A stretch of DNA of 64,000 nucleotides. Origin: Escherichia coli. GTDB taxonomy: Bacteria; Pseudomonadota; Gammaproteobacteria; Enterobacterales; Enterobacteriaceae. The notes beneath the pieces are model-generated. The model was not told where the DNA came from, ran no database searches, and saw only the letters and a list, made by a program, of their open reading frames with translations. A program made the position numbers and the translations under genes. Location of the stretch: NCBI RefSeq assembly GCF_048403405.1, contig NZ_CP183129.1; one strand, written 5' to 3'. Shown here piece after piece: positions 703 to 54,577 of the stretch; the stretch's first letter is position 1, and each line of letters opens with the position of its first letter.

Positions 703-1893
703 TTAATTGCTGTTAACCGAGGTGACCAGATTTGCCAGGTATTTATCGGTAATACGCTGGCGCAGGGTCAGGTTTTCGAGAGGAGGCACCGGTGTATAGT
801 CGTAGTCGATATACAGTTTTCCGGCCTTGAGGGTTTCCGCATCGTTGGATTCTTCGCTGAACCAGCAGGTCGCATCCACGATATAGCCGTTTGTTTTCAG
901 CTCACGGAATTTGGCATTGATACCGTCAACGATGTCGCGAATCAGCGTTGCGGTGATGGGCTTGTCCACCGCCCACATGTGCGCCTCAGCCATCGTGTCG
1001 GCCAGCACCTGCGCGGTGCGGGTGTAGTTTTCAAAGAGGAACAGCGGGTCATCAGAGCAGGTACGGTTACCCCAGAAGCGGAAACCGTCGCGGCGAATCA
1101 GCGTAGTGACGCCTGACTCGTTAAGCAGGTCAGCATCGGTGCCGGACTCCTGCAAATCCCAGAATACAGATGCACTGATGCCGGTAACACCGTTCACCCC
1201 AACGTTGGACAGCGTTTTATGCCAGCCCTGCTCCTGGTCGATTTTAGCGCGCAGCCCCAGCGCACGGGCAGTGGCATACGCGGTGGCGGTGGTACTGGTG
1301 ACCGTATCCCATGCGAGGAAATCCGGCCAGATGACCATCAGCTCACGCTGGCTGAAATTCTGGCGGTAGGCTTTCACCTCAGAAATGGTTTTACAGCCCC
1401 ATGCGCTGATATACCCGAAAGCGCGCAGCTTCTGACAGACTGATGCCAGTGCAACAGCCACCTCTTTGGTATCCAGTCCCGGCACGCCGAGAATACGCGG
1501 TTTAACACCGGTTACCGACTCCGCCGCCAGCAGGGCTTTCAGTCCGGTGTACTGACCGTTTTCGTCGGTGGTACCGATGATATTGGAAACGGTCTGCGCA
1601 AGTTTCGTTTCTTCGTCGTCGCCGGTGCCGTCTTCCACGCGCACAACAACGGTGACCGGTTTTGACTGGTCAGCGATGGCCTGTAACGACGCCGCCAGCG
1701 TGCCTTTTTTACCGGCCTTTGCAATTGCGCTCTGCACATTGGTAATCAGCACCGGTTTATTGAGGGGGAAGGTTTCCGCATCTGCATCGCTGGCCGTGCA
1801 GACCATGCCGACAATGGCAGTGGATACGGTGGAAATGACGCGGGTGCCGTCGTTAATCTCCAGCACCTGCACGCCGTGATGATAGTCACTCAT
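703..1893 (-). CDS. FI: Contractile tail sheath protein FI
   Basis: ATG at 1893 (MSDYHHGVQVLEINDG...), GGAG 9 nt upstream; ~396 aa; tail-sheath-like sequence. The supplied ORF extends upstream to a non-ATG start. Confidence 0.9.
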   Translation of the reverse strand: MSDYHHGVQVLEINDGTRVISTVSTAIVGMVCTASDADAETFPLNKPVLITNVQSAIAKAGKKGTLAASLQAIADQSKPVTVVVRVEDGTGDDEETKLAQTVSNIIGTTDENGQYTGLKALLAAESVTGVKPRILGVPGLDTKEVAVALASVCQKLRAFGYISAWGCKTISEVKAYRQNFSQRELMVIWPDFLAWDTVTSTTATAYATARALGLRAKIDQEQGWHKTLSNVGVNGVTGISASVFWDLQESGTDADLLNESGVTTLIRRDGFRFWGNRTCSDDPLFLFENYTRTAQVLADTMAEAHMWAVDKPITATLIRDIVDGINAKFRELKTNGYIVDATCWFSEESNDAETLKAGKLYIDYDYTPVPPLENLTLRQRITDKYLANLVTSVNSN

Positions 1894-2353
1894 CCGTCTA
1901 ACTCCGTGGTTAATGGGTGAGTGGTATTTTCTGTTGTGCAGAGCATGAGACGCTATTTGACCTGGCTGGTCAGTGGATGAAACAACAGATAAAGAAAAGG
2001 CGGACAATCCGCCCGCCTGTCATGATTTGTACTCACTTATTTCCCGACTGACAATTTACATAGCCAAAACGCTATCAAATCTGACAGTCTGCTTTGAGCG
2101 AGGAGCGGAAGTTAAGGGGCGGTTTAGTATCTAACATGATCTATATGAAATAGTGATTCTTGGCGTATTGCTAATACAACCCCGATTTGATGTAACTCTT
2201 GTCCACTTTCATCTAACTTCCTCTTGTTCAGGTTCATTTTTAACTGCTAATATGCAGTATATAAAGGAACATGGGTTTACCGTTGTAAGATGCTGCTGAA
2301 AGGTAAGCATAATTATATTGTTAGGTGTCTTTTTATTTTTAAAGGCTTTAAAC

Positions 2354-3460
2354 ATGTCTAAAACACGCGATGATTTCAGCTCAAAAACTGTAAGAGCTCT
2401 AGCACTACGGGCTGGTTATAGGTGCTCATTCCCCGGTTGTAATCAGCTTACAGTTGGCCCCAGTGATGAATCCTTAACATCTATCACAAATATTGGGGTA
2501 GCTGCGCACATTCATGCCGCAGCTCCTGGGCCATTAGCAAGACGATATGATCCTAATCAAACACCAGATGAAAGGAAAGATATAAATAATGGCATCTGGA
2601 TGTGTGTTAATCACAGCGTTGAAATTGATAGAGATGAAATTAGATATACAGCAGAAATTCTTAAAGAAATGAAGAAAGCCCACGAAGAAGAGATTAAAAA
2701 AGAGGTGAGCAATGGTTCTTCATCAACCAAACATAATGATTTCATTGCAATAGGTATAGACATTATCGTTTTCGGAGAGCTTACCGGAATCTCAACCAAT
2801 GAGTGGACTATAAAATTTGCAAACTTCTTTACTGGCGATTTATCTAAGTTAATATCTTTCAACGAAAGATTCCACTCCATCCCTACCGAAGAAAAATTTA
2901 TTCTAGTTAATCAACTTGGTGAGGGGCGTTTGTTATCAGCACCAATAAAATTAAATAAATTACCAGATAGCTATGAAGTAATCGTCCCTGTTGAAATAGA
3001 CACTCCGCGCATCAATTGCAATAGCCTCCCAATGGATTTAGATATTTTCACGACAGGCGATTTATTTGTAAATAGTTCTGGTGATATAGCTACGATATCG
3101 GGGTTTGAAGCTTTACCACAAAAAATATATACTTCCCTTTCCACCATTAGAGGTGAGATTTATTCCCATCCAACATTGGGTTCCAGAATAAGACAGTTCT
3201 TCCATGACTTTGAAGGAACAATGTGGCTAGACAAATTAGTTAAATTAGAAGTTATACGCTTATCTTGTATACCAATTTTTGATTCAATCACAAAAAACAA
3301 ATACACTCCATTACATTGTGTAAAAAATGTCAAAAATATTCGGGTGATACCAACTGAATATAAAGATAGCAAATTACCTATTGAGTTCACCCTTGATATT
3401 GAAGGTTTCGGCATCTGGTCCAAAGAAATAAGTGTTTTCTCACCTAAATACGATGAATAA
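2354..3460 (+). CDS. Cargo protein with N-terminal HNH-like nuclease motif (C-x4-C ... AAHIHAA ... NGIWMCVNHSVEIDRD) and ~250-aa C-terminal region of unknown function
   Basis: ATG at 2354 preceded by AAAGG; 368 aa; low-GC by eye; sits at the P2 Z/fun variable position between G and FI, on the strand opposite to the late genes. Motif assignment is by eye, not by HMM. Confidence 0.6.
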   Translation: MSKTRDDFSSKTVRALALRAGYRCSFPGCNQLTVGPSDESLTSITNIGVAAHIHAAAPGPLARRYDPNQTPDERKDINNGIWMCVNHSVEIDRDEIRYTAEILKEMKKAHEEEIKKEVSNGSSSTKHNDFIAIGIDIIVFGELTGISTNEWTIKFANFFTGDLSKLISFNERFHSIPTEEKFILVNQLGEGRLLSAPIKLNKLPDSYEVIVPVEIDTPRINCNSLPMDLDIFTTGDLFVNSSGDIATISGFEALPQKIYTSLSTIRGEIYSHPTLGSRIRQFFHDFEGTMWLDKLVKLEVIRLSCIPIFDSITKNKYTPLHCVKNVKNIRVIPTEYKDSKLPIEFTLDIEGFGIWSKEISVFSPKYDE

Positions 3461-3983
3461 AATTGAAGTTCTTGAACCGCTATATTTGGCTCCGGTATTT
3501 ACTCCGTGAGTGGTATCCTAGGGCCCTGTGCGGAGGATTTCATTGTAATGCTCATACGCTGTAGCCAGGTTCATGTTTCTTCAGCAAGGCCATTTGGGCT
3601 AGTGGCCTGCTCCCCATTGCTCCACACAAAAAATTATTCGTTACGTCCGCTCCTGGCACACAGTAGACATCGAGAGACAGCTTCGAGCGATAATCAGAAG
3701 TTCGCAATTGTCATCACCCAAAAGTTGTTTATAACTTGTAGCAAGGTGCATTGTTCAACGTTGAGTTGGTCAAGTTCAGTTAATGATCGGACGATATCTC
3801 ACTCTGCCCAATAGCACATCTGTTTTACGGGAAGTGAGTTTCAACATCACGAGCTTTGTTAGTAAACATCACTTATTTATTAAGAATATGTTTCATAGAA
3901 CAGGGCCGGAGAACTTAATTTCATATTCTAAAAAGTGATGCGCAGACATCACTTTAAACTTTTTAAAGCGCGAAAACCCTACG

Positions 3984-4985
3984 TCAGAATTTGACAGTAG
4001 GAACGGTTGGCCAGATTCTAGCAATAGACTTAAACATAGTCTCCACAATATATTCGAGAACCTCATCATCAGGCTCTTTCATTAATGCTTTTACTTTATT
4101 TATTCTATCCTGAAGTGAAGGGTGAGATTTTGAAAAACCCCAGTTGTTTTTACCTAACATAGTAACGCTGAATAATGCACAGTATATAGAAAGTCTTCTT
4201 TTCCTGCTCACCAACACACGGTCATACATAGACTCTTCACAGTAATTATCTATATGGTCAAGGATGAATTTATTTGCAAACTCATCACATGAGAACTCTT
4301 CATTATGAGCTTGTTCTTGTGTGAATTCATTCATATCATAACTGGTACCTTCCTGCTGATGAATGATATGTCGGACTTCATGCAAAAATGCCCAAGCAGC
4401 AGCAATAATTGCTAATTCAGCTGTTGCTCTTTTAACTGGTTCGATTTTACTGTCAGGCATGGTGCCAGGTTCAGGAATTCCTATTGGTAGTGGTTTTTCA
4501 TCCGGTACCTCATCTTTAGCCGTGTTTTCAAAAGCGCAGATTAACTGTTCAAAGTTTACGAAGTCTGCCGAACTGAAATCAGCAAGTTCTTCCTGTAGCT
4601 CCTCGAGTAAAACATGTAATTCTGACTCGGTTGAGACTAATGATATTTTCTTTGAGTCAAAAAGATCTAAAATAGAATCCCTTTTATCGATAATGTCTTC
4701 AATTTTTTTATTTTGCTCAGTGTTTATTGCTTCGTAGCCCGCCATTGCAGCAAATGTTCCTATCCAGAACGTGCGCAAAACACGATGATTGAAGCGGATA
4801 AATCGATACATCCCCGCATCAAAAATAAATTTACCGTCTGTATGATTATCGCTATGATTTTGGAAGGTCATGTTAAATTTAGACCAGAACTCATCCAGTT
4901 CATTCTGACGCTCTGGAATAGAGGCTAAAAACATTTTTCTTACGCTGTCCTGAACTGTTTTATCTTCATTATGCTCTTCAAACAT
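3984..4985 (-). CDS. Cargo protein with HExxH motif (AWAFLHEVRHIIH), possible zinc metallopeptidase-like protein; acidic N-terminal half
   Basis: ORF 3984..5045; preferred start is ATG at 4985 with GGTGAG upstream (333 aa); alternative TTG at 5045 (353 aa). Convergent with the HNH-like gene; low-GC by eye. Confidence 0.55.
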   Translation of the reverse strand: MFEEHNEDKTVQDSVRKMFLASIPERQNELDEFWSKFNMTFQNHSDNHTDGKFIFDAGMYRFIRFNHRVLRTFWIGTFAAMAGYEAINTEQNKKIEDIIDKRDSILDLFDSKKISLVSTESELHVLLEELQEELADFSSADFVNFEQLICAFENTAKDEVPDEKPLPIGIPEPGTMPDSKIEPVKRATAELAIIAAAWAFLHEVRHIIHQQEGTSYDMNEFTQEQAHNEEFSCDEFANKFILDHIDNYCEESMYDRVLVSRKRRLSIYCALFSVTMLGKNNWGFSKSHPSLQDRINKVKALMKEPDDEVLEYIVETMFKSIARIWPTVPTVKF

Positions 4986-5248
4986 TTGCTCACCTATATT
5001 GCTGTTAATTTTATCTAATGATGAACCGAGTGGGTTGTTTACCAAGCCTCATGTTACATGTTTTTTGCTTTCCGAATATTTAAGCGTTAGAAGCAAGTAG
5101 GAAAAACGTAGAGCAGTTAACCAAGGCTTTCTACAGGCAGATTAACATAACTTGGTCAGGAATGTCCGCTCTTGGCACATAGCGGACTGTCAGATTAGGC
5201 TTTACTCTGTGCTATAGATATGTAAGCTCACACCAGAGATCATACAAC

Positions 5249-5776
5249 TTATTGCGGCATTTCCGGCCATTCGGGATTTGCAGGATCCACACGACTGACC
5301 AGAACGCTGTAGCGTTCCCATGCTTCCAGTCGGCTGCGTTCCTCATCCGTCGCCATATTCAGCCTGACAGCGCGTTCCAGCGGCAAAATCACGGATTCAG
5401 CTTCGGAAAGTAAAGCTGCCTTTTGTGATTCTGCCTGTTGCTCCTGTTCATCTGCCGTATAAATCCGCTTAATCACGGCACCATCCTTAAACATCCATTT
5501 ACCTGAGTCATCAGCACGTCGGTTGGAGGTAATATCAGGAACCTCGACAACGCTGAAACCTTCAGGGTTAAGCGTTGAAGCATCTCTGGTGATGCCGACA
5601 ATTATATTATTCTCGTCGTAAACAATCTTTATCGTGTCTTCCTGAAAATTACTTACTTCCTCATACCAGTTTTTTCCCTCTTCGGACCATAACCAGATAA
5701 CATCAAAATTTTTTGTCAGTTGATATTGGGCAACAGTTTTTGGATTACCCGCAGTAATATTTTTTAAATGCTGCAT
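5249..5776 (-). CDS. G: Tail fibre assembly protein gpG
   Basis: 175 aa, [19 protein letters not shown]..., immediately downstream of H as in P2. Confidence 0.85.
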
Positions 5777-9271: not shown

Positions 9272-9619
9272 TCAACTCACAGGGATGGTTAATGAAAGTG
9301 GCTGGCCGGTGTCGTTGTGCTGGCCGGTTAACGTGACCGTCATTCGCCCGTCAAAGCTGCGCGCCGTGGTAACGGATGACAGGGTGACGCGGGGTTCCCA
9401 TTTCAGCACCGCCATGTAACAGGCGACCTTAATCTGCAACTCAAGCGCCGGGGTCTGCGGCTGGTCAATCATTGACGCCAGCAACGAGCCGTAATCACGA
9501 CGCATCACCCGTGAGCCGACCGGCGTGCGCAGGATATCGCCGATACTCTGGCTGATATGCTCAAGGTCAGTGACAGTCAGGCCATCACTGCGATTCATTC
9601 CGAGATAACGCGCTGTCAT
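9272..9619 (-). CDS. W: Baseplate protein gpW
   Basis: 115 aa, P2 order. Confidence 0.85.
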   Translation of the reverse strand: MTARYLGMNRSDGLTVTDLEHISQSIGDILRTPVGSRVMRRDYGSLLASMIDQPQTPALELQIKVACYMAVLKWEPRVTLSSVTTARSFDGRMTVTLTGQHNDTGQPLSLTIPVS

Positions 9620-10257
9620 TTTGTCCCCTGCGTCCAGTTGTCACCTGACTTAACACCACCGTGACCGTGGTCATCCACCTGAACGCCGTTAGAAGTGAAT
9701 TTCCCGTCGGTATGCTCGATGTTGCCGTGCATCTTCCCGCCCTTCTGCACTTCCAGCGTGCCGGTAATCAGCCTGTTGGTGCAGACCACCTCCGGTGTGT
9801 CCAGGGTGACGCGGGTTGATGCTTTCACCATGACCACCGGCACCGTGGCAGTAACAGAATCAGAAGCCGTCACGCTGGCTGTTTTAATTCCGCTTACCGT
9901 GAGTGCACTGGTTTCGGGTTCATATTCAATCACCGCCCCGTCAGGGAAACGGATATGCAGGGCATCCGCCGACGCAGACGGCGCGGGGTTATCGCCGGAA
10001 TAAATCCCCGGCAGAACGAACGCCGTGTCGAGTTCACCGCCCACGGCCAGAATCAGCACCTGCTCCCCCACGGAAGGTGCCCACCATGTGCGCGAACGAC
10101 CGGCACGATGGGTCAGCCACTGAAGCCAGTCAGTGCACATGCCGCCGGTCTGCACACGGCAGCGACCGGCGTTAAGGTCGGTTTCGACGATAATGCCGGT
10201 GCGAATCATGTTGCGCAGTGCGCGCGCGAGTTCCTGAATATTTGCGAGAGTGTTCAT
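9616..10257 (-). CDS. V: Baseplate spike/assembly protein gpV
   Basis: ATG at 10257 (MNTLANIQELARAL...); the supplied ORF uses an upstream TTG. Confidence 0.85.
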   Translation of the reverse strand: MNTLANIQELARALRNMIRTGIIVETDLNAGRCRVQTGGMCTDWLQWLTHRAGRSRTWWAPSVGEQVLILAVGGELDTAFVLPGIYSGDNPAPSASADALHIRFPDGAVIEYEPETSALTVSGIKTASVTASDSVTATVPVVMVKASTRVTLDTPEVVCTNRLITGTLEVQKGGKMHGNIEHTDGKFTSNGVQVDDHGHGGVKSGDNWTQGTK

Positions 10258-10340
10258 GCATGTGAGATTGCACAATATATAAAAGTTATGCTATCTGGAT
10301 TCATTTGTAGAACTACCAGACAACATTCAAGGAGAGCGTA

Positions 10341-11126
10341 ATGGTCAGCTATAATGTGACTAATGTGTGGGGGCTAATCGTTTTTTTCCTTTGTAGCTTT
10401 GCAGTATTAGCATTTTTTAGCTTTGGTAAAAGTAACCTTATGAGGCTTATTGCACATTATTTCAATTTTGGATATTCAGACAAAAAATTAAAAAGACTTG
10501 ACCGCGAGTGGCGCGACATTCAACTATTTAAAATAATTAATGGAATCAATGTATCAGGCATTGAAAATGTGAGAATGATACAGCAGGGACTGATTGATGG
10601 AAAACTAAAAACATCGTATTTTTTCCTTACTCGCATCTGGGGTGACATAACAAAACCACCACACATAATTAAAACAATAATTGTAATTCTGGCCAGTATT
10701 TTTTACATTCTCCTCGCATGTTACATACACAACGAACAATCCGTTATAGTAAGGGATGCCATAGGCATACCATATAAAAACATGATGTACTATGTTTATA
10801 GTGACAAAGTTCTTTTATCCTTCAAAAATAAAGCAGTTGAATTTAATAAAACTTATAGCCTTGCCGATTGCAAGAGACTGCAAAACGTATTTATAAAAGA
10901 CACACTTCCTGAGATCGCCTGCAATAAGCTCTTACAGCTAAACGAGGAGGACTCCGAATGGTTAAGCCAGGAGATTAAAGATAATAACAGTCACAAAAAA
11001 GCATTATTAATACTATCCCTCGTCTATTTCACTTCAGGTCTGGTTATATTCCTGTCATATACAAAATTCTTTTACGCCAATAAGAAGGTTTTAGAATACA
11101 AAGCATCAAATAAAAATCACTCATAA
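10341..11126 (+). CDS. Cargo membrane protein with three hydrophobic segments, at the P2 orf30 position; function unknown
   Basis: ATG at 10341 with AAGGAG 7 nt upstream; 261 aa; hydrophobic helices near residues 9-28, ~110-130 and ~222-241; strongly AT-rich by eye; opposite strand to flanking late genes; followed by a 12-bp-stem hairpin. Confidence 0.6.
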   Translation: MVSYNVTNVWGLIVFFLCSFAVLAFFSFGKSNLMRLIAHYFNFGYSDKKLKRLDREWRDIQLFKIINGINVSGIENVRMIQQGLIDGKLKTSYFFLTRIWGDITKPPHIIKTIIVILASIFYILLACYIHNEQSVIVRDAIGIPYKNMMYYVYSDKVLLSFKNKAVEFNKTYSLADCKRLQNVFIKDTLPEIACNKLLQLNEEDSEWLSQEIKDNNSHKKALLILSLVYFTSGLVIFLSYTKFFYANKKVLEYKASNKNHS

Positions 11127-11132
11127 ACCTCT

Positions 11133-11167
11133 AAACATTGAGCGACCAGCATGGCCGCTCAATGTTT
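11133..11167. terminator. Hairpin (12-bp perfect stem AAACATTGAGCG/CGCTCAATGTTT) between the membrane-protein gene and S; likely bidirectional terminator
   Basis: Inverted repeat read directly from the sequence. Confidence 0.6.
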
Positions 11168-11197
11168 AATTGCGCATCAGCCTCTGCCTGGATAAAA

Positions 11198-11650
11198 CTA
11201 ACGCTCAAGGTGAGTCAGGATAATCTCTTCAATCATCTGCACATCCTCACCGGTAAAGCTGAGCAGAGGACGCGCCGGATAATCAATTTTCTTACCGTCT
11301 TTCCGGGTTTCTTCCGACAGACCGAACTGATGCACACTGGCGATTTTCGGCGACTTCCCGCCGTAAAATTCCATTGATGCCTGTTCCGGGCTGGCGCGGA
11401 TATGCAAAAAACGACTGGTGATAAGTTTCGCAAACATTTTTCGCTTAACACGACCGGTCTTTTTTCTGGCGCTCTGCTGCTGGCGTGGCGCGTAGGGTGT
11501 GCCGTCCGGGGCTTTCTGTGCCATCACCCGACGCTGCTGACTCTGCCGCAGACGCTTCGCCAGCTCTGCACTCAGCCGCCGACGCCCTGACGGTGACAGC
11601 GACTCAATCAGTCCGGTCAGCCGGTCTTCAAAACGCTTAAACTCATTCAT
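11198..11650 (-). CDS. S: Tail completion protein gpS
   Basis: 150 aa, P2 order. Confidence 0.85.
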   Translation of the reverse strand: MNEFKRFEDRLTGLIESLSPSGRRRLSAELAKRLRQSQQRRVMAQKAPDGTPYAPRQQQSARKKTGRVKRKMFAKLITSRFLHIRASPEQASMEFYGGKSPKIASVHQFGLSEETRKDGKKIDYPARPLLSFTGEDVQMIEEIILTHLER

Positions 11651-20405: not shown

Positions 20406-21113
20406 CTATATATACTTCCTTTTTACTCTACTTAATTCTATCACTGATGAGGAGTGACAAAATGACAAATTAATAGTATCGATATAATCCAAAATTTGAC
20501 TCTCAACCTCAATAAAAATATTTTTGGGCCCATTACTAATCGATATACCGATTTCATCCAAAACAGCCATCATTTTTCTCTGATGAGTTTTATATTTATA
20601 GTCTTTATTTTCCTCTGTAATATGTGCATTGGCTTCCTCAATAACACATTTGATTCTAGATATTATTTCTAGATAATCTCTCGAAACAGATATATCACCG
20701 CCTTGCGCTTCAGGGAACATAACCCTATACCATCTAAAAAAATTAACTTTCTCTGGATAGATGCTACTTCTTTTAGTTAACTCAGCACTTGCAAATTCTC
20801 TAAACATCGTCAGATGACTAGTGTAATTACTATTATTATTATTTTTAACTCCAGCGTTATATGTCATCAAAGCAATCATAACACCAAAAACGGTAACAAA
20901 AGTTGTTATAAGCCATCCAAACGCCTGAAAATACATTACTATACCAGATGTTTTTTCCGCAAAAAATTTTAAGCACTGGCTATCGAAGCATATATCACGC
21001 TCATATAGCTTTTCATTCTGAATAGTTTCAAAAAGAGAAATTAGCGAAAAAATCAAAAAAAGAGCTGACGACACACCGACAATATATTTGAGAAGTCTAA
21101 TATTTGCATTCAT
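20406..21113 (-). CDS. Cargo protein with two N-terminal transmembrane helices, translationally coupled to the upstream reverse transcriptase; candidate effector
   Basis: ATG at 21113 overlaps RT stop (ATGA); 235 aa; hydrophobic segments IVGVSSALFLIFSLISLF and GIVMYFQAFGWLITTFVTVFGVMIALMTY; AT-rich by eye. Confidence 0.65.
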   Translation of the reverse strand: MNANIRLLKYIVGVSSALFLIFSLISLFETIQNEKLYERDICFDSQCLKFFAEKTSGIVMYFQAFGWLITTFVTVFGVMIALMTYNAGVKNNNNSNYTSHLTMFREFASAELTKRSSIYPEKVNFFRWYRVMFPEAQGGDISVSRDYLEIISRIKCVIEEANAHITEENKDYKYKTHQRKMMAVLDEIGISISNGPKNIFIEVESQILDYIDTINLSFCHSSSVIELSRVKRKYI

Positions 21114-22336
21114 AATGGTTTTAAAGATGCCAATCTAGATTTAAAACACTCCAGTTTTTCTTTAAATGATTCAGAGCGAGTAAGAATAATCATCTTATAT
21201 CTCGTCAAATCATATTTTCTTTTATACCAATGTTTATTTTGATTACCTTTCGAATACGACAACTCTAAACTTTTTATAGCTGCATCAATCACAGCAACAT
21301 CTCTTTTAGATGGCATCGGTTTTATTGCCTGCAACTGTTTCTTGAATGATTCATATTTTTCATGCCCAACACGGCCAAGCTTATTCACTCTCCCCATACA
21401 TCTATTGAATTCTTTTCTGTATGCAACACTTGTTTTTGTGTTATTTTTTGCCGCCAGTAATTTCAAATTATGTATAGATGCCCTGATTCTTTTGACTTCA
21501 TCGGATGGTAGTCGAGGTGAGTCATAGTCAACTCTTAAACCATGTACTTTTATAGGTTCAGATGAACAGTGAAATATTTTTGTTTTGTGCTTATTTATCG
21601 GCAAGTCATGCTCAGAAAGCATCCTCTCTATATGGCTTTGCATTTGAGAAAAATCATAATTACTTATTTTAGATGACACGGTAATATCATCTACCAAACG
21701 CGTATAAACAAGTCCTTTCCTCTGCGCACGTCTTACCACATCCCCTTCAACAGCGAATAAACACAAAGTTGCTATATAGCTTGATGTTAAGGCCCCCTGT
21801 ACGACAAAATCATCCTTAGTACATATATCCACCAAGTATTCAAGAGCCTCATCCTTAATATGCAATATCTCCTCAAACACGCTCCTAACCAGATCTCTAT
21901 GGATATTATCGAAAAAATTACTTATATCCACCTTGAGAACTGTTTTTGCTCCACAATGAGCCTTTGCACATGAAACATAGTCACGTTTGACATTAGAATT
22001 TAAAACATCATTTTTACTGGGAACTGAACCAAACAAAAATGAAGGAAAAACAACCAATTCCTTAAAAATACGTTTATTAATTCTACTCTGTAATAATCTC
22101 ATTTTAGGATGTAGGGAGTAGACAATCCGTTTGCTTCCGTCAATTTTGGGAATTTCTTTTAGAGTATATTTCTCATCTAATGATAATTCTGCAATAGCTT
22201 TAAGCTCTTCAACAGAAATCGATAAAGCCTTTGACAACTTTTCAAGTGTTGTGATAGGAGCATTGGATTTGCTGTATGGTTTAAATTTATCCATAAACAT
22301 ACCATTCAAATTCAAAGTTACGTACGGTCTTCCCAT
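21110..22336 (-). CDS. Reverse transcriptase (retron-like or Abi-type), defence-associated candidate
   Basis: RT motifs in the translation: IPKIDGSKRIVY (fingers), VLKVDISNFFDNI (motif A), QGALTSSYIA (motif B-like), YTRLVDDITVSS (YxDD; DNA ~21671-21706), and KVHGLRVDYD resembling the retron VTG region. Start uncertain: ATG candidates at 22336, 22300, 22294; the supplied ORF extends to a TTG at 22384. Confidence 0.8.
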   Translation of the reverse strand: MGRPYVTLNLNGMFMDKFKPYSKSNAPITTLEKLSKALSISVEELKAIAELSLDEKYTLKEIPKIDGSKRIVYSLHPKMRLLQSRINKRIFKELVVFPSFLFGSVPSKNDVLNSNVKRDYVSCAKAHCGAKTVLKVDISNFFDNIHRDLVRSVFEEILHIKDEALEYLVDICTKDDFVVQGALTSSYIATLCLFAVEGDVVRRAQRKGLVYTRLVDDITVSSKISNYDFSQMQSHIERMLSEHDLPINKHKTKIFHCSSEPIKVHGLRVDYDSPRLPSDEVKRIRASIHNLKLLAAKNNTKTSVAYRKEFNRCMGRVNKLGRVGHEKYESFKKQLQAIKPMPSKRDVAVIDAAIKSLELSYSKGNQNKHWYKRKYDLTRYKMIILTRSESFKEKLECFKSRLASLKPL

Positions 22337-22625
22337 ACTCAAGGGTGGAACAGCAGAGATGCTTACATCAACAATTGTCAGCAACAGCCTCTGCTATCTT
22401 TCGACCGTACGTAATGTCGTCGGCTACGGCACCATCGTAGTTGACGACGGTGGGGCCTCGCTGATAGGTCCATAGTGGACGCTTTTTTGTAAAAGCAAAA
22501 ACTGACAATTTAATGTTGTTGACTGCCGCATACCAAGCGAATCGCTGGTGCGCTAAGAATAATGCAACAAAAAAATAAGAATTTCAACCGGGTAACTGCA
22601 AGCCAGCGACATCGTTTAGCGCGCA

Positions 22626-22644
22626 GTGCTTTCCCCGCCTCGCC
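22626..22644 (-). other. cos: cos cohesive-end site (19 nt, GGCGAGGCGGGGAAAGCAC on the minus strand)
   Basis: Exact match to the P2 cohesive-end sequence as remembered; embedded in a locally GC-rich noncoding stretch between the RT gene and the 612-aa gene. Confidence 0.75.
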
Positions 22645-22805
22645 CGCCCGCTTCGTGGGGCGGTTTTAATGCAGGTGCAATACCGCTTTTGAGCCACGCC
22701 CGTCCTGGCGGACGCACGGCCGGAACATGCAACTCCGGCACATGCAAAACCATGCACATATTGCACGCAGAAAGATAAATGCCAAAATACCTAAATCAAC
22801 TTCCA

Positions 22806-24644
22806 TTAATCAGCCAGATAAGGTTCAACTTTATCTTCCCATACACTAAATAAAGGCAAACAAGTTAAATAAAAGATAAAGACACAGGCAAAAACTGAAG
22901 TTGGTTGATAACAATGATTTACAGTATACCTGCCATGAGCCATCGTGTGTCTAATTGCAGCACCACCTTTCATATTGAACAATAAATCCATAGTCAATAC
23001 ATGATCACTATCAAAAACACCTTCCATTTCACTCCTATAATTTGCAAGCATTTGAGATAGGCTAGTAGCCTCCTCAAAAAGCGACACATCTATTTTCGTT
23101 GTTTCTTTTCTTCTTAATTCTAAAATCCATCTAATTGAATTCTCCAATTGCGGCAATAACAAATAACAGGCAGACACATAATCTCCCTGCCAAAGCTTAT
23201 AAAACCCCAAAGAAAATATTTCTGCATACCCAGGTGGAACAAATGCACTTTGTTGTGAGATTGGGTCAAATGTATTTTCATTTAATGAATACCTAGCCAA
23301 CACACTTTGCCTAACGACTTCAAACTCACCACAAACATAGACCTGATGCTCAATGTTACTAGTTCTTAAATAATTTGCACAAGCATCATTTAAACTTATA
23401 TCCCCCGCAGGATCCAAAGGTGAACGACTTGCTACAACGCGCCCTCTATCATCATAAACAACCGTTTCACTCATATTAAGAAAAAAATGTTTTTTAGCAT
23501 CGGAACGAGCTCTTTCCATAATTTCACTGGCACTTACAATCTTAAATCTAGCAATTAAAGTTTTAATTACCCTTGAGAAATCCAATTGATTATAAACATG
23601 CTCTTTCTGAGCGATAACATCACTAAGATCCATTGGTATTGCAAAGAAGTGCATTTCATCATTGATTTGATCTCGAATAGAATTCAATTCCTCTCTAATC
23701 TTTTTAATTTCTTCATTCATTCCACCAATTGCTCTAAATTCGCCAAGAGCAACTCTTAACCAATGAGCCTTCAATATTGAAGATGAAGACTGTTCAAATT
23801 GAGCCAATGTTATTTCTGACGCTTTAATTCTGCACCGTCTTCCTTGCTCTTCCATATCGTTTTTAACATATAATTCAGACGCAAAATAAAACAATTTTTT
23901 CACTGCATCAAAATAAGACGCTCCACAATGCTCATCAGCTATCTTTTCTGCATTCTCAGCCAATTGCAAGGGACACAATAAATTATTCTTATAAAGAATT
24001 TCAGAAACTCTTAATACACCGGTGAATATACCAGAGTCTATTAATACATGATATAACCTTAATGTCGAATCAACTATCCCCCCTTGTAGTTGTTTTTTCC
24101 TGCCAATAAGCATGCGCGATATTGCGATACCTCTATCCAAGCAGTCAACAACATCAAAAATATGGATATCACCTGACTCTTGTTTTTCTATTAAAGTATC
24201 GCAAGCATCATTAACCATTAGAGAATATGACTCTATTGCTTTATTGGCAGAGTCTATATCCTTACGGTTATTTATCCATAAAACATCACACACCCTAGAT
24301 ATAATATAAGGATTATCGGAGTTTTCTTTAATACAAGTTAATATTGTTGAAAAACTCTCCTTATAATCTGAAGGCCTATAGCCCCTCTCAGGATAGAGAA
24401 TGATTTTTGGCTCAAAACCGATAATATCACCAGACCTAGAAAATTTAAAATTAAACAACGCACGTAATAAATAGCAAAGCCGCCAAGAACTTACATCGTT
24501 TTTTAGCTTGTAAGATGACAACAACTGAACAAAATAAGACTCCATATCAAAATGAGAATAACTTCTTGGCGATGATAATATACTGGCGTATTCACTTTTT
24601 TTAAAATCATCAACTGAAATAGAAAAAACATCAAACTCGCTCAT
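22806..24644 (-). CDS. Cargo protein of unknown function (612 aa) with C-terminal HEPN-like R-x4-H motif (AIRHTMAHGRY); candidate abortive-infection RNase
   Basis: ATG at 24644 with GGTGAGGA upstream; no P-loop seen; AT-rich by eye; occupies the P2 tin/old position between A and cos. The HEPN call rests on one short motif. Confidence 0.6.
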   Translation of the reverse strand: MSEFDVFSISVDDFKKSEYASILSSPRSYSHFDMESYFVQLLSSYKLKNDVSSWRLCYLLRALFNFKFSRSGDIIGFEPKIILYPERGYRPSDYKESFSTILTCIKENSDNPYIISRVCDVLWINNRKDIDSANKAIESYSLMVNDACDTLIEKQESGDIHIFDVVDCLDRGIAISRMLIGRKKQLQGGIVDSTLRLYHVLIDSGIFTGVLRVSEILYKNNLLCPLQLAENAEKIADEHCGASYFDAVKKLFYFASELYVKNDMEEQGRRCRIKASEITLAQFEQSSSSILKAHWLRVALGEFRAIGGMNEEIKKIREELNSIRDQINDEMHFFAIPMDLSDVIAQKEHVYNQLDFSRVIKTLIARFKIVSASEIMERARSDAKKHFFLNMSETVVYDDRGRVVASRSPLDPAGDISLNDACANYLRTSNIEHQVYVCGEFEVVRQSVLARYSLNENTFDPISQQSAFVPPGYAEIFSLGFYKLWQGDYVSACYLLLPQLENSIRWILELRRKETTKIDVSLFEEATSLSQMLANYRSEMEGVFDSDHVLTMDLLFNMKGGAAIRHTMAHGRYTVNHCYQPTSVFACVFIFYLTCLPLFSVWEDKVEPYLAD

Positions 24645-29702: not shown

Positions 29703-30698
29703 ATGTCTATTAAAAAGCTCGATGATGGTCGTTATGAAGTGGACGTCAGACCGCAGGGTGCAGATGGAAAACGTATCAGGCGGAAATTTAAAACTAAAGG
29801 TGAAGCTCAAGCATTCGAACGTCATGTGCTGGTTAACTACCACAACAAAGAGTGGCTGGAGAAGCCAGCCGACCGCCGAACTCTTACAGAGTTGTTAGGC
29901 AGATGGTGGATATATCACGGAAAATCACATGAGCGTGGAAATATTGAACGGGGGCGTTTGACGACAATAATCGCCAAATTTGCAGAAATGGGGGTGTCCA
30001 GAGCTGACCAGTTAACAAAGAAAACGATAACTGATTATCGAGTTGTAATGATGAACGATGGTCTAAAACCAGCCAGCGTAAATCGGCATCTGGCAATAAT
30101 GAGCGGGATGTTCACCAAGTTAATTGACGCCGGTGAATACCACTCTCACAACCCGTTCCGTGAGGTTAAGCGGTTACGTGAAGCTGTTACAGAAATGGCT
30201 TTTTTGTCCAGTGAAGAGATTACGCGGCTGTTATCCATGCTTGATGGTGATGAGTTAAATGCAACTCTGGTCTGCCTTTCTACTGGTGGACGCTGGAGTG
30301 AAGTGTCTAATTTGAAAGCTGAACACATCATTAACCAGATGGTTACGTTTATGAAAACTAAAAACGGAAAGCGCAGGACAATTCCCGTTTCGCAGGACCT
30401 GATTAAAAGGATCAAGACCAAAAATTCAGGCAGGCTTTTTAATGCCAGTTACTACAAAGTGCGTAACGCTCTCAGGGAAGTAAAACCCGATTTACCTGAC
30501 GGACAAGCAGTACATGTTTTGAGGCATACATTTGCCACACATTTTATAATGAATGGAGGTAACATAATCACATTGCAGCGCATCCTGGGTCATTCTAACA
30601 TTCAGCAAACTATGACCTACGCACACTTTGCACCGGATTTCTTACAAGATGCTGTGACTCTTAACCCGGTGTCAGGAATGTCCATAATGCGTCCATAA
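29703..30698 (+). CDS. int: Tyrosine integrase (P2 Int family)
   Basis: 331 aa; MSIKKLDDGRYEVDVRP..., HxxR and C-terminal catalytic region (LRHTFATHF...GHSNIQQTMTYAHF); last prophage gene before the host junction. Confidence 0.9.
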   Translation: MSIKKLDDGRYEVDVRPQGADGKRIRRKFKTKGEAQAFERHVLVNYHNKEWLEKPADRRTLTELLGRWWIYHGKSHERGNIERGRLTTIIAKFAEMGVSRADQLTKKTITDYRVVMMNDGLKPASVNRHLAIMSGMFTKLIDAGEYHSHNPFREVKRLREAVTEMAFLSSEEITRLLSMLDGDELNATLVCLSTGGRWSEVSNLKAEHIINQMVTFMKTKNGKRRTIPVSQDLIKRIKTKNSGRLFNASYYKVRNALREVKPDLPDGQAVHVLRHTFATHFIMNGGNIITLQRILGHSNIQQTMTYAHFAPDFLQDAVTLNPVSGMSIMRP

Positions 30699-30729: not shown

Positions 30730-31527
30730 ATGAGTAATTTAACTAATTGTAATACAACAGAAAATACCGCTACGGCGGGGGCTACCAAGTCAGTTATTGG
30801 TCGCATTCACTCCTTTGAATCCTGTGGAACCGTAGACGGCCCGGGTATTCGCTTTATCACCTTTTTCCAGGGCTGCCTGATGCGCTGCCTGTATTGTCAT
30901 AACCGCGACACCTGGGACACGCATGGCGGTAAAGAAGTTACCGTTGAAGATTTAATGAAAGAGGTGGTGACCTATCGCCACTTTATGAACGCTTCCGGCG
31001 GCGGCGTTACCGCATCCGGCGGTGAAGCAATCCTGCAAGCTGAGTTTGTTCGTGACTGGTTCCGCGCCTGCAAAAAAGAAGGCATTCATACCTGTCTGGA
31101 CACCAACGGTTTTGTTCGTCGTTACGATCCGGTGATTGATGAACTGCTGGAAGTAACCGACCTGGTAATGCTCGATCTCAAACAGATGAACGACGAGATC
31201 CACCAAAATCTGGTTGGAGTTTCAAACCACCGCACGCTGGAGTTCGCCAAATATCTGGCGAACAAAAATGTGAAGGTGTGGATCCGCTACGTTGTTGTCC
31301 CAGGCTGGTCTGACGATGACGATTCAGCGCATCGCCTCGGTGAATTTACCCGTGATATGGGCAACGTTGAGAAAATCGAGCTTCTCCCCTACCACGAACT
31401 TGGCAAACACAAATGGGTGGCGATGGGTGAAGAATACAAACTTGATGGTGTTAAACCACCGAAGAAAGAGACCATGGAACGCGTGAAAGGCATTCTTGAG
31501 CAGTACGGTCATAAGGTAATGTTCTAA
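30730..31527 (+). CDS. pflA: Pyruvate formate-lyase activating enzyme, with prophage-junction-derived N-terminal extension
   Basis: From residue 21 ([22 protein letters not shown]..., radical-SAM CxxxCxxC) it matches E. coli PflA as remembered; the canonical ATG is AAG here and the frame opens at an upstream ATG (30730). Confidence 0.9.
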
Positions 31528-54489: not shown

Positions 54490-54577
54490 GGTGAGGTGTC
54501 CGAGTGGCTGAAGGAGCACGCCTGGAAAGTGTGTATACGGCAACGTATCGGGGGTTCGAATCCCCCCCTCACCGCCA
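54490..54577 (+). tRNA. serW: tRNA-Ser (anticodon GGA), long variable arm
   Basis: GGTGAGGTGTCCGAGTGGCTGAAGGAGCACGCCTGGAAAGTGTGTATACGGCAACGTATCGGGGGTTCGAATCCCCCCCTCACCGCCA; T-loop GGTTCGAATCC; position between infA and clpA. Confidence 0.85.

What the first reader, a model, noticed from the sequence alone, without database searches (positions are those of the whole stretch)
10341..11126. AT-rich membrane protein at the orf30 position between V and S, on the opposite strand
Seen in sequence: a 261-aa ORF with a strong AAGGAG SD, three hydrophobic segments, very AT-rich codon usage, transcribed against the late genes and followed by a 12-bp-stem terminator. Established knowledge: P2 has a laterally acquired gene (orf30) at this position. 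Inference: a lysogenic-conversion gene, plausibly a superinfection-exclusion or membrane-acting defence protein.
Basis: partly seen in the sequence, partly recalled or inferred. Interest (0 to 1): 0.55.

Follow-up and report, generated by a model that had tools for sequence, protein, structure and literature searches.

The report
Phage P2 orf30, an uncharacterised membrane gene
This is the long-known but never characterised gene orf30 of phage P2: a small inner-membrane protein carried as an optional extra between two tail genes, probably helping the lysogenic host (most likely by blocking other phages), though nothing here proves what it does.

Summary
It is P2 orf30 itself (99.6% DNA identity, 260/261 residues), annotated "nonessential".

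It matches no Pfam, PADLOC or NCBIfam family and no solved or viral structure. Its only family is PHROG phrog_2407, "unknown function". Some relatives weakly match Pfam DUF6216.

What I added:
- **Family:** a small, fast-diverging Enterobacterales family (16-39% identity among relatives).
- **Topology:** predicted N-out, three membrane helices, a conserved cytoplasmic helical loop and a periplasmic domain with two conserved cysteines.
- **Position:** nearly every member with readable context lies between tail genes V and S of a P2-like prophage, opposite to them, at about 33% GC. A few sit in decayed prophage remnants.
- **Occupancy in E. coli:** the site is mostly empty or holds orf30 (463 of 1,577 genomes with this junction). 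It is not a high-turnover hotspot.
- **Selection:** purifying in the loops and relaxed in two membrane helices, with dN/dS well above the neighbouring genes.

My best guess is a prophage-expressed block on phage genome entry at the inner membrane (about 0.35). Rivals are an abortive-infection effector, an orphan toxin-immunity protein and another envelope function.

Verdict: already known as a gene, function still open, moderate to low interest.

The parts
10341..11126 (+). orf30 coding sequence (261 aa + stop), identical to P2 Orf30 except I141T
   Evidence: PHROG phrog_2407 E 5.5e-149 over the full length
10329..10334 (+). Shine-Dalgarno sequence AAGGAG, 6 nt before the ATG
   Evidence: read from the sequence
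10299..10326 (-). Activator (Ogr) binding site of the late promoter pV, transferred from the P2 annotation. It ends 2 nt before the orf30 Shine-Dalgarno, so any orf30 promoter must overlap the pV control region or lie inside V.
   Evidence: P2 record features mapped through a gap-free 99.6% alignment. A CACAAC half-site is conserved upstream of all six orf30-like genes compared.
10365..10424 (+). Membrane helix 1 (residues 9-28), N-terminus predicted outside. The most variable segment among close alleles (dN/dS about 1.5).
10509..10652 (+). Most conserved part of the family (residues 57-104, in the predicted cytoplasmic loop 1): W.D.QLF(K/R)..NGINV...DA..I...(I/L)..G.L ... (W/F)G..(T/G)
   Evidence: alignments A2 and A3; highest mean column conservation, 0.56; helix-loop-helix in the model
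10665..10727 (+). Membrane helix 2 (residues 109-129)
10728..11000 (+). Predicted periplasmic domain (residues 130-220): four-stranded beta sheet plus helices, with Cys177 (10869-10871) and Cys194 (10920-10922). Exactly two Cys are present in this loop in 24 of 25 relatives.
11001..11060 (+). Membrane helix 3 (residues 221-240), followed by a Lys-rich cytoplasmic tail (residues 241-261)
11132..11168 (.). 12-bp-stem hairpin between the convergent genes orf30 and S. Annotated in P2 as the putative terminator of the O operon; probably serves both directions.
   Evidence: not called by the terminator scan; only a sub-threshold chance Rfam match
9616..10257 (-). Left boundary: gene V (baseplate spike), first gene of the pV late operon
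11198..11650 (-). Right boundary: gene S (tail completion), last gene of the pO late operon

Best explanation
Identity (confidence about 0.97): this is orf30 of phage P2, carried here by a mosaic P2-like prophage. It is a classical moron, an optional AT-rich gene wedged between the end of one late operon (pO, ending with S) and the promoter of the next (pV).

Protein (prediction, about 0.8): an inner-membrane protein with the N-terminus outside and three membrane helices. It has a conserved, positively charged helical loop of about 80 residues in the cytoplasm. It also has a domain of about 90 residues in the periplasm, a beta sheet plus helices, probably stapled by a Cys177-Cys194 disulfide.

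Mechanism (inference, about 0.35): the prophage makes it at a low level. It protects the lysogen by interfering, at the periplasm and inner membrane, with genome entry of incoming phages. This is superinfection exclusion in the manner of T4 Imm, P22 SieA or HK97 gp15, and does not kill the cell.

Expression (inferred): the pV activator site ends 2 nt before the orf30 ribosome-binding site, so the orf30 promoter must overlap pV back-to-back. orf30 would then be transcribed when pV is silent (lysogeny) and probably occluded when Ogr activates pV late in infection.

Shown: identity, family, position, composition, selection pattern. Inferred: topology, expression timing, function.
For: - Identity: 99.6% DNA identity and 260/261 residues to P2 orf30, annotated 'nonessential'.
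- Optional gene: of 60 sampled E. coli V|S junctions, 33 are empty and 21 hold the 940-bp orf30 insert. Overall, 463 of 1,577 genomes with this junction carry orf30.
- Real and maintained: 460 of 463 copies are near full-length. Loop dN/dS is 0.24-0.36.
- Fast evolution, as expected for a conflict gene: whole-gene dN/dS is 0.33-0.61, against 0.00-0.23 for W, V, S and R in the same phages. E. coli alleles are mostly 80-95% identical while the flanks are 95-99%.
- Membrane topology: three hydrophobic helices. In 25 relatives, Lys+Arg in the flanks that would face the cytoplasm outnumber those facing out, 198 to 99. There are no charges in the N-terminus. Exactly two Cys lie in loop 2 in 24 of 25 relatives. 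The AlphaFold model has pLDDT 84.5 and pTM 0.75.
- Benefit to the host rather than the virion: intact copies survive in decayed P2-like remnants where V and S are gone (L022, L023).
- Company: the two other variable loci of this same prophage carry recognisable defence genes, namely a type IV retron, PDC-S39, a Lit-like protein and an endonuclease-like protein.
- Established knowledge (from memory, not tested here): late-region morons of temperate coliphages commonly encode envelope proteins that block entry, such as HK97 gp15 and phi80/N15 Cor. The other P2 conversion genes old, tin and fun(Z) are all anti-phage.
Against: - No direct evidence of any anti-phage effect, and no functional study found.
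- No similarity to any PADLOC defence model, for Orf30 or for ten relatives.
- Among PHROGs families it matches only phrog_2407, 'unknown function'.
- No solved or viral structural relative.
- No sigma-70 consensus promoter upstream, so expression in the lysogen is unproven.
- The locus is nearly binary in E. coli (empty or orf30), not a diverse swap site like the proven P2 defence hotspots. Recent hotspot surveys do not list it (PMC9122126; 10.1101/2024.10.15.618418; 10.64898/2026.02.27.708500).
- The best-conserved part is cytoplasmic, which is not what a simple periplasmic entry block predicts.
- 18 genomes carry two orf30 copies, and orf30-positive genomes in the sample are not poorer in second P2-like junctions (5 of 21 against 4 of 33). 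It therefore does not obviously exclude P2-like phages themselves. This sample is small and confounded.
Confidence: 0.35

Rival explanations
1. Abortive-infection membrane effector. The conserved cytoplasmic loop senses an infection cue, and the three-helix protein then oligomerises and depolarises or permeabilises the inner membrane. The infected cell dies before the phage matures, like RexB or the two-helix effectors of retrons and CBASS, but as a single gene.
For: The best-conserved region is cytoplasmic, as expected for a sensor or regulatory module. It is a single membrane protein with no enzymatic domain. It sits in a prophage whose other variable loci hold abortive-type systems (type IV retron with a 2TM effector, Lit-like). 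It evolves fast.
Against: No similarity to RexB, 2TM or any other PADLOC effector. The cytoplasmic part is only about 80 residues of helix-loop-helix with no recognisable sensing domain. There is no partner gene in P2. The conserved periplasmic disulfide domain has no obvious role in this model.
Confidence: 0.15
2. Orphan immunity protein. It protects the lysogen against a membrane-targeting toxin of competitors (pore-forming colicin, T6SS or CDI effector), as the three- and four-helix inner-membrane colicin immunity proteins do.
For: Inner-membrane protein with three helices whose helices 1 and 3 evolve fastest (dN/dS about 1.5). Pore-forming-toxin immunity is decided within the membrane helices (from memory). 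In some P2-like prophages the same V|S locus also carries an HExxH protein plus a lipoprotein matching NCBIfam 'putative T6SS immunity periplasmic lipoprotein', directly upstream of the orf30-like gene (L116, L025). It is retained in decayed prophages.
Against: No match to any curated immunity family in NCBIfam or Pfam. No toxin gene lies next to orf30 in P2 or in most loci. At 261 aa with two soluble domains it is larger than known pore-former immunity proteins (from memory).
Confidence: 0.1
3. Envelope or host-physiology factor unrelated to conflict, for example altering membrane transport, stress tolerance, colonisation or serum resistance, as lambda bor and lom do.
For: It is a moron encoding an envelope protein, present in 8.5% of complete E. 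coli genomes from humans, animals and water. It is kept in decayed prophages. It shows no defence-family similarity.
Against: The gene-wide elevated dN/dS and rapid allele divergence fit an arms race better than a housekeeping-type benefit. The family is tied strictly to P2-like phages, not to particular host lifestyles.
Confidence: 0.2
4. A function in P2's own lytic cycle (for example lysis timing, protection of infected cells from secondary adsorption, or tail or DNA-exit assistance), or no function at all (a selfish passenger).
For: It lies inside the late region, directly beside the pV promoter. Three-helix membrane proteins include holins and antiholins (from memory).
Against: It is annotated nonessential. 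It is absent from about half or more of otherwise 95-99% identical V|S junctions, and from viable phages such as Wphi. It is on the opposite strand to all late operons. It is retained where the virion genes have decayed. Against 'no function': purifying selection in the loops and 460 of 463 near full-length copies.
Confidence: 0.15

Closest known systems
Phage P2 Orf30 (AAD03281.1, AF063097 9439-10224) / PHROG phrog_2407
   Same: The same gene: 99.6% DNA identity, 260/261 residues, same neighbours, same hairpin and same pV activator site. All ten divergent relatives tested also fall in phrog_2407.
   Different: One substitution (I141T). The surrounding prophage is mosaic, not P2 itself: its gpV differs (dN 0.08) and its other variable loci hold different cargo.
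Pfam DUF6216 (PF19723), uncharacterised proteobacterial membrane proteins
   Same: Similar length and predicted fold. 3 of 25 relatives match the HMM at E<=1e-3 and 6 at E<=0.1. The one alignment shown, for P0023, is nearly full-length (38-223 to model 42-243 of 270) but weak (E 0.16). AlphaFold DB proteins named DUF6216 align at Foldseek E about 1e-4.
   Different: Orf30 itself gives no Pfam hit even at E<=10. DUF6216 has no known function, so the link explains nothing yet.
Inner-membrane superinfection-exclusion proteins (T4 Imm, P22 SieA, HK97 gp15)
   Same: Small phage-encoded inner-membrane proteins with no enzymatic domain. HK97 gp15 is likewise a moron inside the tail-gene region of a temperate coliphage (from memory). 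This is the working analogy.
   Different: No sequence or fold similarity detected in PHROGs, PADLOC, PDB or BFVD. Orf30 is larger and has two soluble domains. No exclusion phenotype is known.
P2 lysogenic-conversion genes old, tin and fun(Z)
   Same: Non-essential genes in the three regions where P2-like phages differ (TO region, Z region, orf30), as noted in PMC3091744 citing Nilsson et al. 2004.
   Different: Those three have demonstrated anti-phage phenotypes and lie in highly diverse hotspots (PMC9122126). The orf30 site is nearly binary (empty or orf30) and untested.
Lambda RexB and the two-helix effectors of retrons and CBASS
   Same: Prophage-borne multi-helix inner-membrane proteins acting in defence.
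   Different: No homology. Those work with a partner sensor; orf30 stands alone in P2.

Membership tests
P2 Orf30 / PHROG phrog_2407 | Full-length sequence match to the family profile and to the P2 reference protein | tested here: met
   phrog_2407 E 5.5e-149, residues 1-261 of 261; 260/261 identical to AAD03281.1
P2 Orf30 / PHROG phrog_2407 | Position between V and S of a P2-like late region, on the opposite strand | tested here: met
   The same holds for 70 of 74 close IMG/VR loci (the other four show only V or only S), for 17 of 18 divergent IMG/VR loci (the last ends before S), and for 6 divergent genomic members.
Pfam DUF6216 (PF19723) | Match to the Pfam HMM | tested here: not met
   No Pfam hit for Orf30 even at E<=10. 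Only 3 of 25 relatives reach E<=1e-3. The relation is plausible but distant.
Pfam DUF6216 (PF19723) | Shared fold with family members | tested here: inconclusive
   Foldseek against AFDB50: proteins named DUF6216 at E 1e-4 to 1e-3, TM 0.36-0.58. This used the first, lower-confidence model.
Moron (Hendrix-type extra gene in a prophage) | Present or absent between conserved neighbours, and dispensable | tested here: met
   Empty against occupied V|S junctions; 'nonessential' in the P2 record
Moron (Hendrix-type extra gene in a prophage) | Base composition unlike the surrounding genome | tested here: met
   GC 0.338 against 0.55-0.59; 0.30-0.36 against 0.50-0.63 in all related loci
Moron (Hendrix-type extra gene in a prophage) | Own promoter and terminator | tested here: inconclusive
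   The hairpin is present but lacks a U-run on this strand. No consensus promoter was found, and the space upstream is taken by the pV control region.
Moron (Hendrix-type extra gene in a prophage) | Expressed from the repressed prophage | not testable with these tools
   Needs RNA-seq, 5'-RACE or proteomics of a lysogen
Superinfection-exclusion proteins acting at the inner membrane | Inner-membrane location | tested here: inconclusive
   Prediction only: three helices and a positive-inside bias of 198 to 99 over 25 relatives
Superinfection-exclusion proteins acting at the inner membrane | Homology to a characterised exclusion protein | tested here: not met
   PHROGs gives only phrog_2407, unknown function. 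No BFVD match below E 0.08. No meaningful PDB match.
Superinfection-exclusion proteins acting at the inner membrane | Blocks genome entry without affecting adsorption or killing the cell | not testable with these tools
   Needs plaque, adsorption and DNA-entry assays
Known anti-phage defence systems (PADLOC-DB 2.0.0) | Match to any defence protein model | tested here: not met
   0 families at E<=1 for Orf30. For ten relatives, only two chance-level hits at E about 0.02.
Toxin immunity proteins (colicin, T6SS, CDI) | Match to a curated immunity family, or an adjacent cognate toxin | tested here: not met
   No NCBIfam or Pfam match. No toxin gene beside orf30 in the window. A T6SS-immunity-like lipoprotein is a neighbour only in L116 and L025.

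The most novel reading that the evidence does not exclude
The Orf30 family (phrog_2407, distantly DUF6216) is a new single-protein inner-membrane anti-phage or exclusion family. It has been a fixed, fast-evolving resident of the V|S junction of P2-like phages across Enterobacterales. It would be a fourth, overlooked immunity gene of phage P2 alongside old, tin and fun(Z), acting through a previously undescribed fold.
Probability: 0.3. Interest if true: 0.55.

Novelty: already known. Interest (0 to 1): 0.3.

Why it matters
P2 is a model phage. Three of its four accessory loci, counted as old, tin and fun(Z), founded the idea that prophages carry anti-phage genes, and their hotspots later yielded many new defence systems. 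orf30 is the one left unexplained.

It is common: 8.5% of complete E. coli genomes, and 29% of those with this type of P2-like V|S junction. It is kept intact, kept even when the prophage decays, and has no recognisable relative in any defence or structure library.

A simple knock-out and expression experiment would settle whether it is a new membrane-level exclusion or immunity protein. If it is, the finding would add a new fold to phage defence. It would also show that low-diversity 'presence or absence' loci, ignored by hotspot surveys, can hold defence genes too. If it is not, the gene is an ordinary orphan moron.

Tried and rejected
- **Homology searches.** Pfam, NCBIfam and PADLOC on Orf30 gave nothing. 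The one NCBIfam hit (RP671a, E 0.018, far below its cut-off) is a membrane-helix artefact.
- **Solved structures.** A PDB sequence-profile search gave only chance hits (GST; NDH chain 4).
- **Helix-hairpin-helix idea.** The loop-1 motif 'NGINV...DA..I' resembles a DNA-binding helix-hairpin-helix. I rejected this as unsupported, because no HhH Pfam family matches even at E<=10.
- **Holin or antiholin.** Rejected on strand, size, dispensability and retention in decayed prophages.
- **Promoter.** The consensus scan found none upstream. By eye only weak candidates exist, overlapping pV.
- **Reaching true DUF6216 proteins and their contexts.** Two further word-indexed searches returned only Enterobacterales relatives.
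- **RNA families.** The Rfam scan gave only a sub-threshold hairpin-to-microRNA match.
- **Literature.** Searches for any orf30 function found none. The Christie & Calendar P2 review was not held.
- **Exclusion of P2-like phages.** A rough test from co-residence counts showed no depletion, but it is too small to weigh.
Full report
**1. The observation**

- AAGGAG lies at 10329-10334, 6 nt before the start codon.
- A 19-residue Kyte-Doolittle scan gives three peaks above 2.2, at residues 9-27, 109-127 and 221-239.
- GC is 0.338 (GC3 0.359), against 0.545-0.585 for V, S, J and R. The composition profile drops to 0.34-0.37 only across this gene.
- The neighbours V (9616..10257) and S (11198..11650), and all other late genes, are on the - strand.
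- A hairpin with perfect 12-bp arms lies at 11132-11168 (dG -22.7 kcal/mol, z = -3.2). It has no U-run on the orf30 strand and was not called by the terminator scan. The P2 record annotates it as the putative terminator of the O operon on the opposite strand.

**2. What it is**

The region 10200-11250 is 99.6% identical, without gaps, to phage P2 (AF063097 9315-10365). There the ORF is annotated 'orf30, Orf30, nonessential'. The protein differs from P2 Orf30 at one residue, I141T. So this is orf30 itself, not another gene at its position.

The prophage around it is a mosaic P2 relative, not P2:
- Over the first 25 kb the best match is phage pro147 (75% coverage), and P2 covers 68%.
- gpV differs from P2 gpV (dN 0.08).
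- The prophage ends at an integrase (29703..30698), next to the chromosomal gene pflA (30730..31527).

**3. Known families**

- Orf30 matches no Pfam family even at E<=10 and no PADLOC model at E<=1. It matches no NCBIfam model above noise.
- It matches PHROG phrog_2407 ('unknown function') over its full length.
- The open literature I could search describes orf30 only as a gene of unknown function. It is named as one of three regions where P2-like phages carry foreign genes: the TO region, the Z region and orf30 (PMC3091744; PMC6823313).
- The systematic hotspot studies treat the A-Q and Z/fun loci and some others, but not S|V (PMC9122126; 10.1101/2024.10.15.618418; 10.64898/2026.02.27.708500).

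**4. The family**

A word-indexed search found only E. coli alleles at 80-98% identity and one Enterobacter protein at 39%. An exhaustive profile search of 1.84 billion representatives found 44 proteins (36 below 1e-10). Most are 250-270 aa and full-length. They are 16-38% identical to Orf30.

Named sources are Enterobacter, Serratia and Sodalis. The structural relatives in the AlphaFold database include Yersinia and Pectobacterium proteins. tblastn independently links a 21%-identity member (P0026) to P2 orf30 at 1e-7. All ten divergent members tested fall in phrog_2407, and none hits PADLOC meaningfully.

Three of 25 members match Pfam DUF6216 at E<=1e-3 and six at E<=0.1. The family is therefore a distant branch of that uncharacterised family.

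Conserved features:
- A GG.SF-like turn after helix 1.
- A strong motif, D.QLF(K/R)..NGINV...DA..I...(I/L)..G.L, followed by (W/F)G..(T/G), at residues 57-104.
- Two cysteines (C177 and the invariant C194, in 'AC.YL').
- 'EL..AI' around the invariant I212.

**5. Predicted protein**

In all 25 relatives the N-terminus carries no Lys or Arg. The flanks that would face the cytoplasm in an N-out topology hold 198 Lys+Arg, against 99 on the other side. Loop 1 is net positive in 24 of 25. Loop 2 holds exactly two Cys in 24 of 25.

This supports the following layout:
- N-terminus outside.
- Helix 1 (residues 9-28).
- Cytoplasmic loop 1 (29-108).
- Helix 2 (109-129).
- Periplasmic loop 2 (130-220), with a probable disulfide.
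- Helix 3 (221-240).
- A Lys-rich cytoplasmic tail.

With a 36-sequence alignment, AlphaFold gives pLDDT 84.5 and pTM 0.75. Loop 1 is helix-loop-helix. Loop 2 is a four-stranded sheet (141-173) plus helices, and a long helix (202-260) runs through helix 3.

Fold searches found only uncharacterised proteobacterial membrane proteins in AFDB50, some named DUF6216, DUF3592 or DUF2207. PDB gave only generic helical matches, and BFVD gave nothing.

**6. Position**

| Source | Members with context | Location |
|---|---|---|
| Genomic contigs, divergent members | P0008, P0026, P0032, P0023, P0030, P0036 | Between V and S of a P2-like late region, opposite strand |
| Genomic contigs, decayed remnants | P0028, P0031 | Beside chromosomal ecotin/PAP2 genes; the orf30-like gene is intact but V and S are lost or truncated |
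| Short contigs | P0016 | Context unknown, but a CACAAC element lies upstream |
| IMG/VR, close loci | 70 of 74 | Flanked by both V and S; the rest show only one of the two |
| IMG/VR, divergent loci (34-42% to their queries) | 17 of 18 | Between V and S; the last ends before S |

Every copy has GC 0.30-0.36, against 0.50-0.63 around it. A CACAAC element, the pV activator half-site, precedes the gene in all six loci compared.

The family is thus a long-standing resident of this junction, or is continually exchanged between P2-like phages by recombination in the conserved flanks. Its low GC is a family trait, not a sign of recent arrival.

**7. Occupancy and selection**

In 5,426 complete E. 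coli genomes, 1,577 have this type of V/S junction and 463 carry orf30. Of those 463, 460 are near full-length, and all are chromosomal and annotated 'hypothetical protein'.

In an evenly spaced sample of 60 junctions:
- 33 are empty (about 67 bp between V and S).
- 21 hold the 940-bp insert.
- 6 are split or otherwise different.

The site is therefore nearly binary, unlike the A-Q hotspot, which has 1,650 arrangements (PMC9122126).

Other cargo occurs occasionally in other genera, beside the orf30-like gene:
- a DUF4062 protein (L011)
- an ORF6N protein that is PDC-S05-like (L013)
- an HNH-like 246-aa protein (L103)
- a 273-aa membrane protein (L100)
- an HExxH protein plus a T6SS-immunity-like lipoprotein (L116, L025)

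Among seven P2-like phages, orf30 has dN/dS 0.33-0.61, against 0.00-0.23 for W, V, S and R. Over 57 distinct alleles the values are:
- loops 0.24-0.36
- helix 2, 0.5
- helices 1 and 3, about 1.5-1.6 (few codons, no significance test)

**8. Expression logic (inferred)**

The P2 record places the pV activator site at window 10299-10326 and the V start at 10257. The orf30 Shine-Dalgarno begins at 10329. Any orf30 promoter must therefore overlap the pV control region, back-to-back, or lie within V. No consensus sigma-70 promoter was found.

A plausible consequence follows. orf30 would be transcribed weakly while pV is silent in the lysogen, and occluded when Ogr activates pV. This needs transcript mapping.

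**9. Mechanism**

The gene is dispensable for the phage and optional among close relatives. It is maintained by selection and retained after prophage decay. It encodes an envelope protein and evolves faster than its neighbours. It also sits in a prophage whose other two variable loci hold recognisable defence genes:
- a type IV retron, RT 1e-176 plus 2TM 4e-85
- PDC-S39, 2e-68
- a Lit-like protein
- an endonuclease-like protein

The explanation I commit to is a prophage-expressed inner-membrane protein that interferes with genome entry of incoming phages (about 0.35). Rivals:
- a single-gene abortive-infection membrane effector (0.15)
- an orphan immunity protein against membrane-targeting toxins (0.10)
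- another envelope or host-fitness role (0.20)
- a role in P2's own cycle, or none (0.15)

Against the leading idea:
- There is no homology to any known exclusion or defence protein.
- There is no proven expression.
- The best-conserved part is cytoplasmic.
- The locus has low diversity.
- Co-residence shows no sign that P2-like phages themselves are excluded (481 copies in 463 genomes).

**10. Verdict**

The object is already known (P2 orf30), and its function is still unknown. The new points are these:
- the family definition
- the weak link to DUF6216
- a consistent topology with a periplasmic disulfide domain
- the strict V|S anchoring across Enterobacterales
- retention in decayed prophages
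- the selection pattern

Interest is moderate to low unless an experiment shows a defence or immunity phenotype.

Noticed in passing
window 20406-24644: The A-Q ('TO') hotspot of this prophage holds a type IV retron: a 2TM_IV effector at 20406..21113(-) (E 4e-85) and an RT_IV reverse transcriptase at 21110..22384(-) (E 1e-176). It also holds a 612-aa PDC-S39 candidate defence protein at 22806..24644(-) (E 2e-68). P2's old and tin are not the cargo here.
   Followed up: partly
window 2318-5045: The Z/fun-type locus between sheath (703..2007) and tail-fibre assembly (5249..5776) holds two genes. One is a 380-aa protein on the + strand with an N-terminal endonuclease-like domain (PDC-M68A 1e-23; CBASS 'Effector endonuclease'; SduA). 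The other is a 353-aa Lit-like protein on the - strand (E 1e-9).
   Followed up: partly
window 9616-10275 and the whole prophage (1 to about 30700): The prophage is mosaic. orf30 is 99.6% P2, but gpV differs from P2 gpV (dN about 0.08, two extra codons). The best overall phage match is pro147 (75% coverage), with P2 at 68%. The integrase at 29703..30698 abuts chromosomal pflA at 30730..31527.
   Followed up: partly
L116 2965-3899; L025 3965-4899: In some P2-like prophages the V|S locus carries two more genes directly upstream of the orf30-like gene and next to the spike gene V. One is a 180-aa HExxH (zincin-like) protein. The other is a 133-aa lipoprotein matching NCBIfam NF045617 'putative T6SS immunity periplasmic lipoprotein' (E 5e-20). 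This looks like an effector-immunity pair.
   Followed up: partly
L011 5877-7214; L103 4242-4982; L100 4916-5737; L013 5800-6432: Other occasional cargo between the orf30-like gene and S: a 445-aa DUF4062 protein, a 246-aa HNH-like protein (CxxC...H...CxxC), a 273-aa membrane protein, and an ORF6N-domain protein weakly matching PDC-S05. The HNH-like protein has the same length as the 741-bp ORF16 reported at this site in phage R18C (PMC6823313); identity to it was not tested.
   Followed up: partly
L022 5001-5768; L023 5001-5750: Intact orf30-like genes survive in decayed P2-like prophage remnants at the same chromosomal neighbourhood (ecotin, PAP2 genes). V and S are deleted; only a GpR fragment or the V start remains.
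   Followed up: yes
window 10365-10424 and 11001-11060: Among 57 orf30 alleles, membrane helices 1 and 3 show dN/dS of about 1.5-1.6 while the soluble loops show 0.24-0.36. There are few codons and no significance test, so this could be relaxed constraint or diversifying selection inside the membrane.
   Followed up: partly
window 10299-10326 and the equivalent in L002, L007, L011, L013, L015: A CACAAC element (half of the pV activator site) is conserved upstream of every orf30-like gene. In P2 it lies only 17 nt from the orf30 ATG, whereas other lineages have 30-80 extra AT-rich bases there. The P2 arrangement leaves no free room for a separate orf30 promoter.
   Followed up: partly
window 54490-54577: tRNA-Ser (anticodon GGA) on the + strand in the chromosomal part of the window, far from the prophage end.
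   Followed up: no
PMC6823313 (literature): The R18C paper describes P2 ORF30 as '261-bp-long'. The gene is 786 bp and encodes 261 amino acids.
   Followed up: yes
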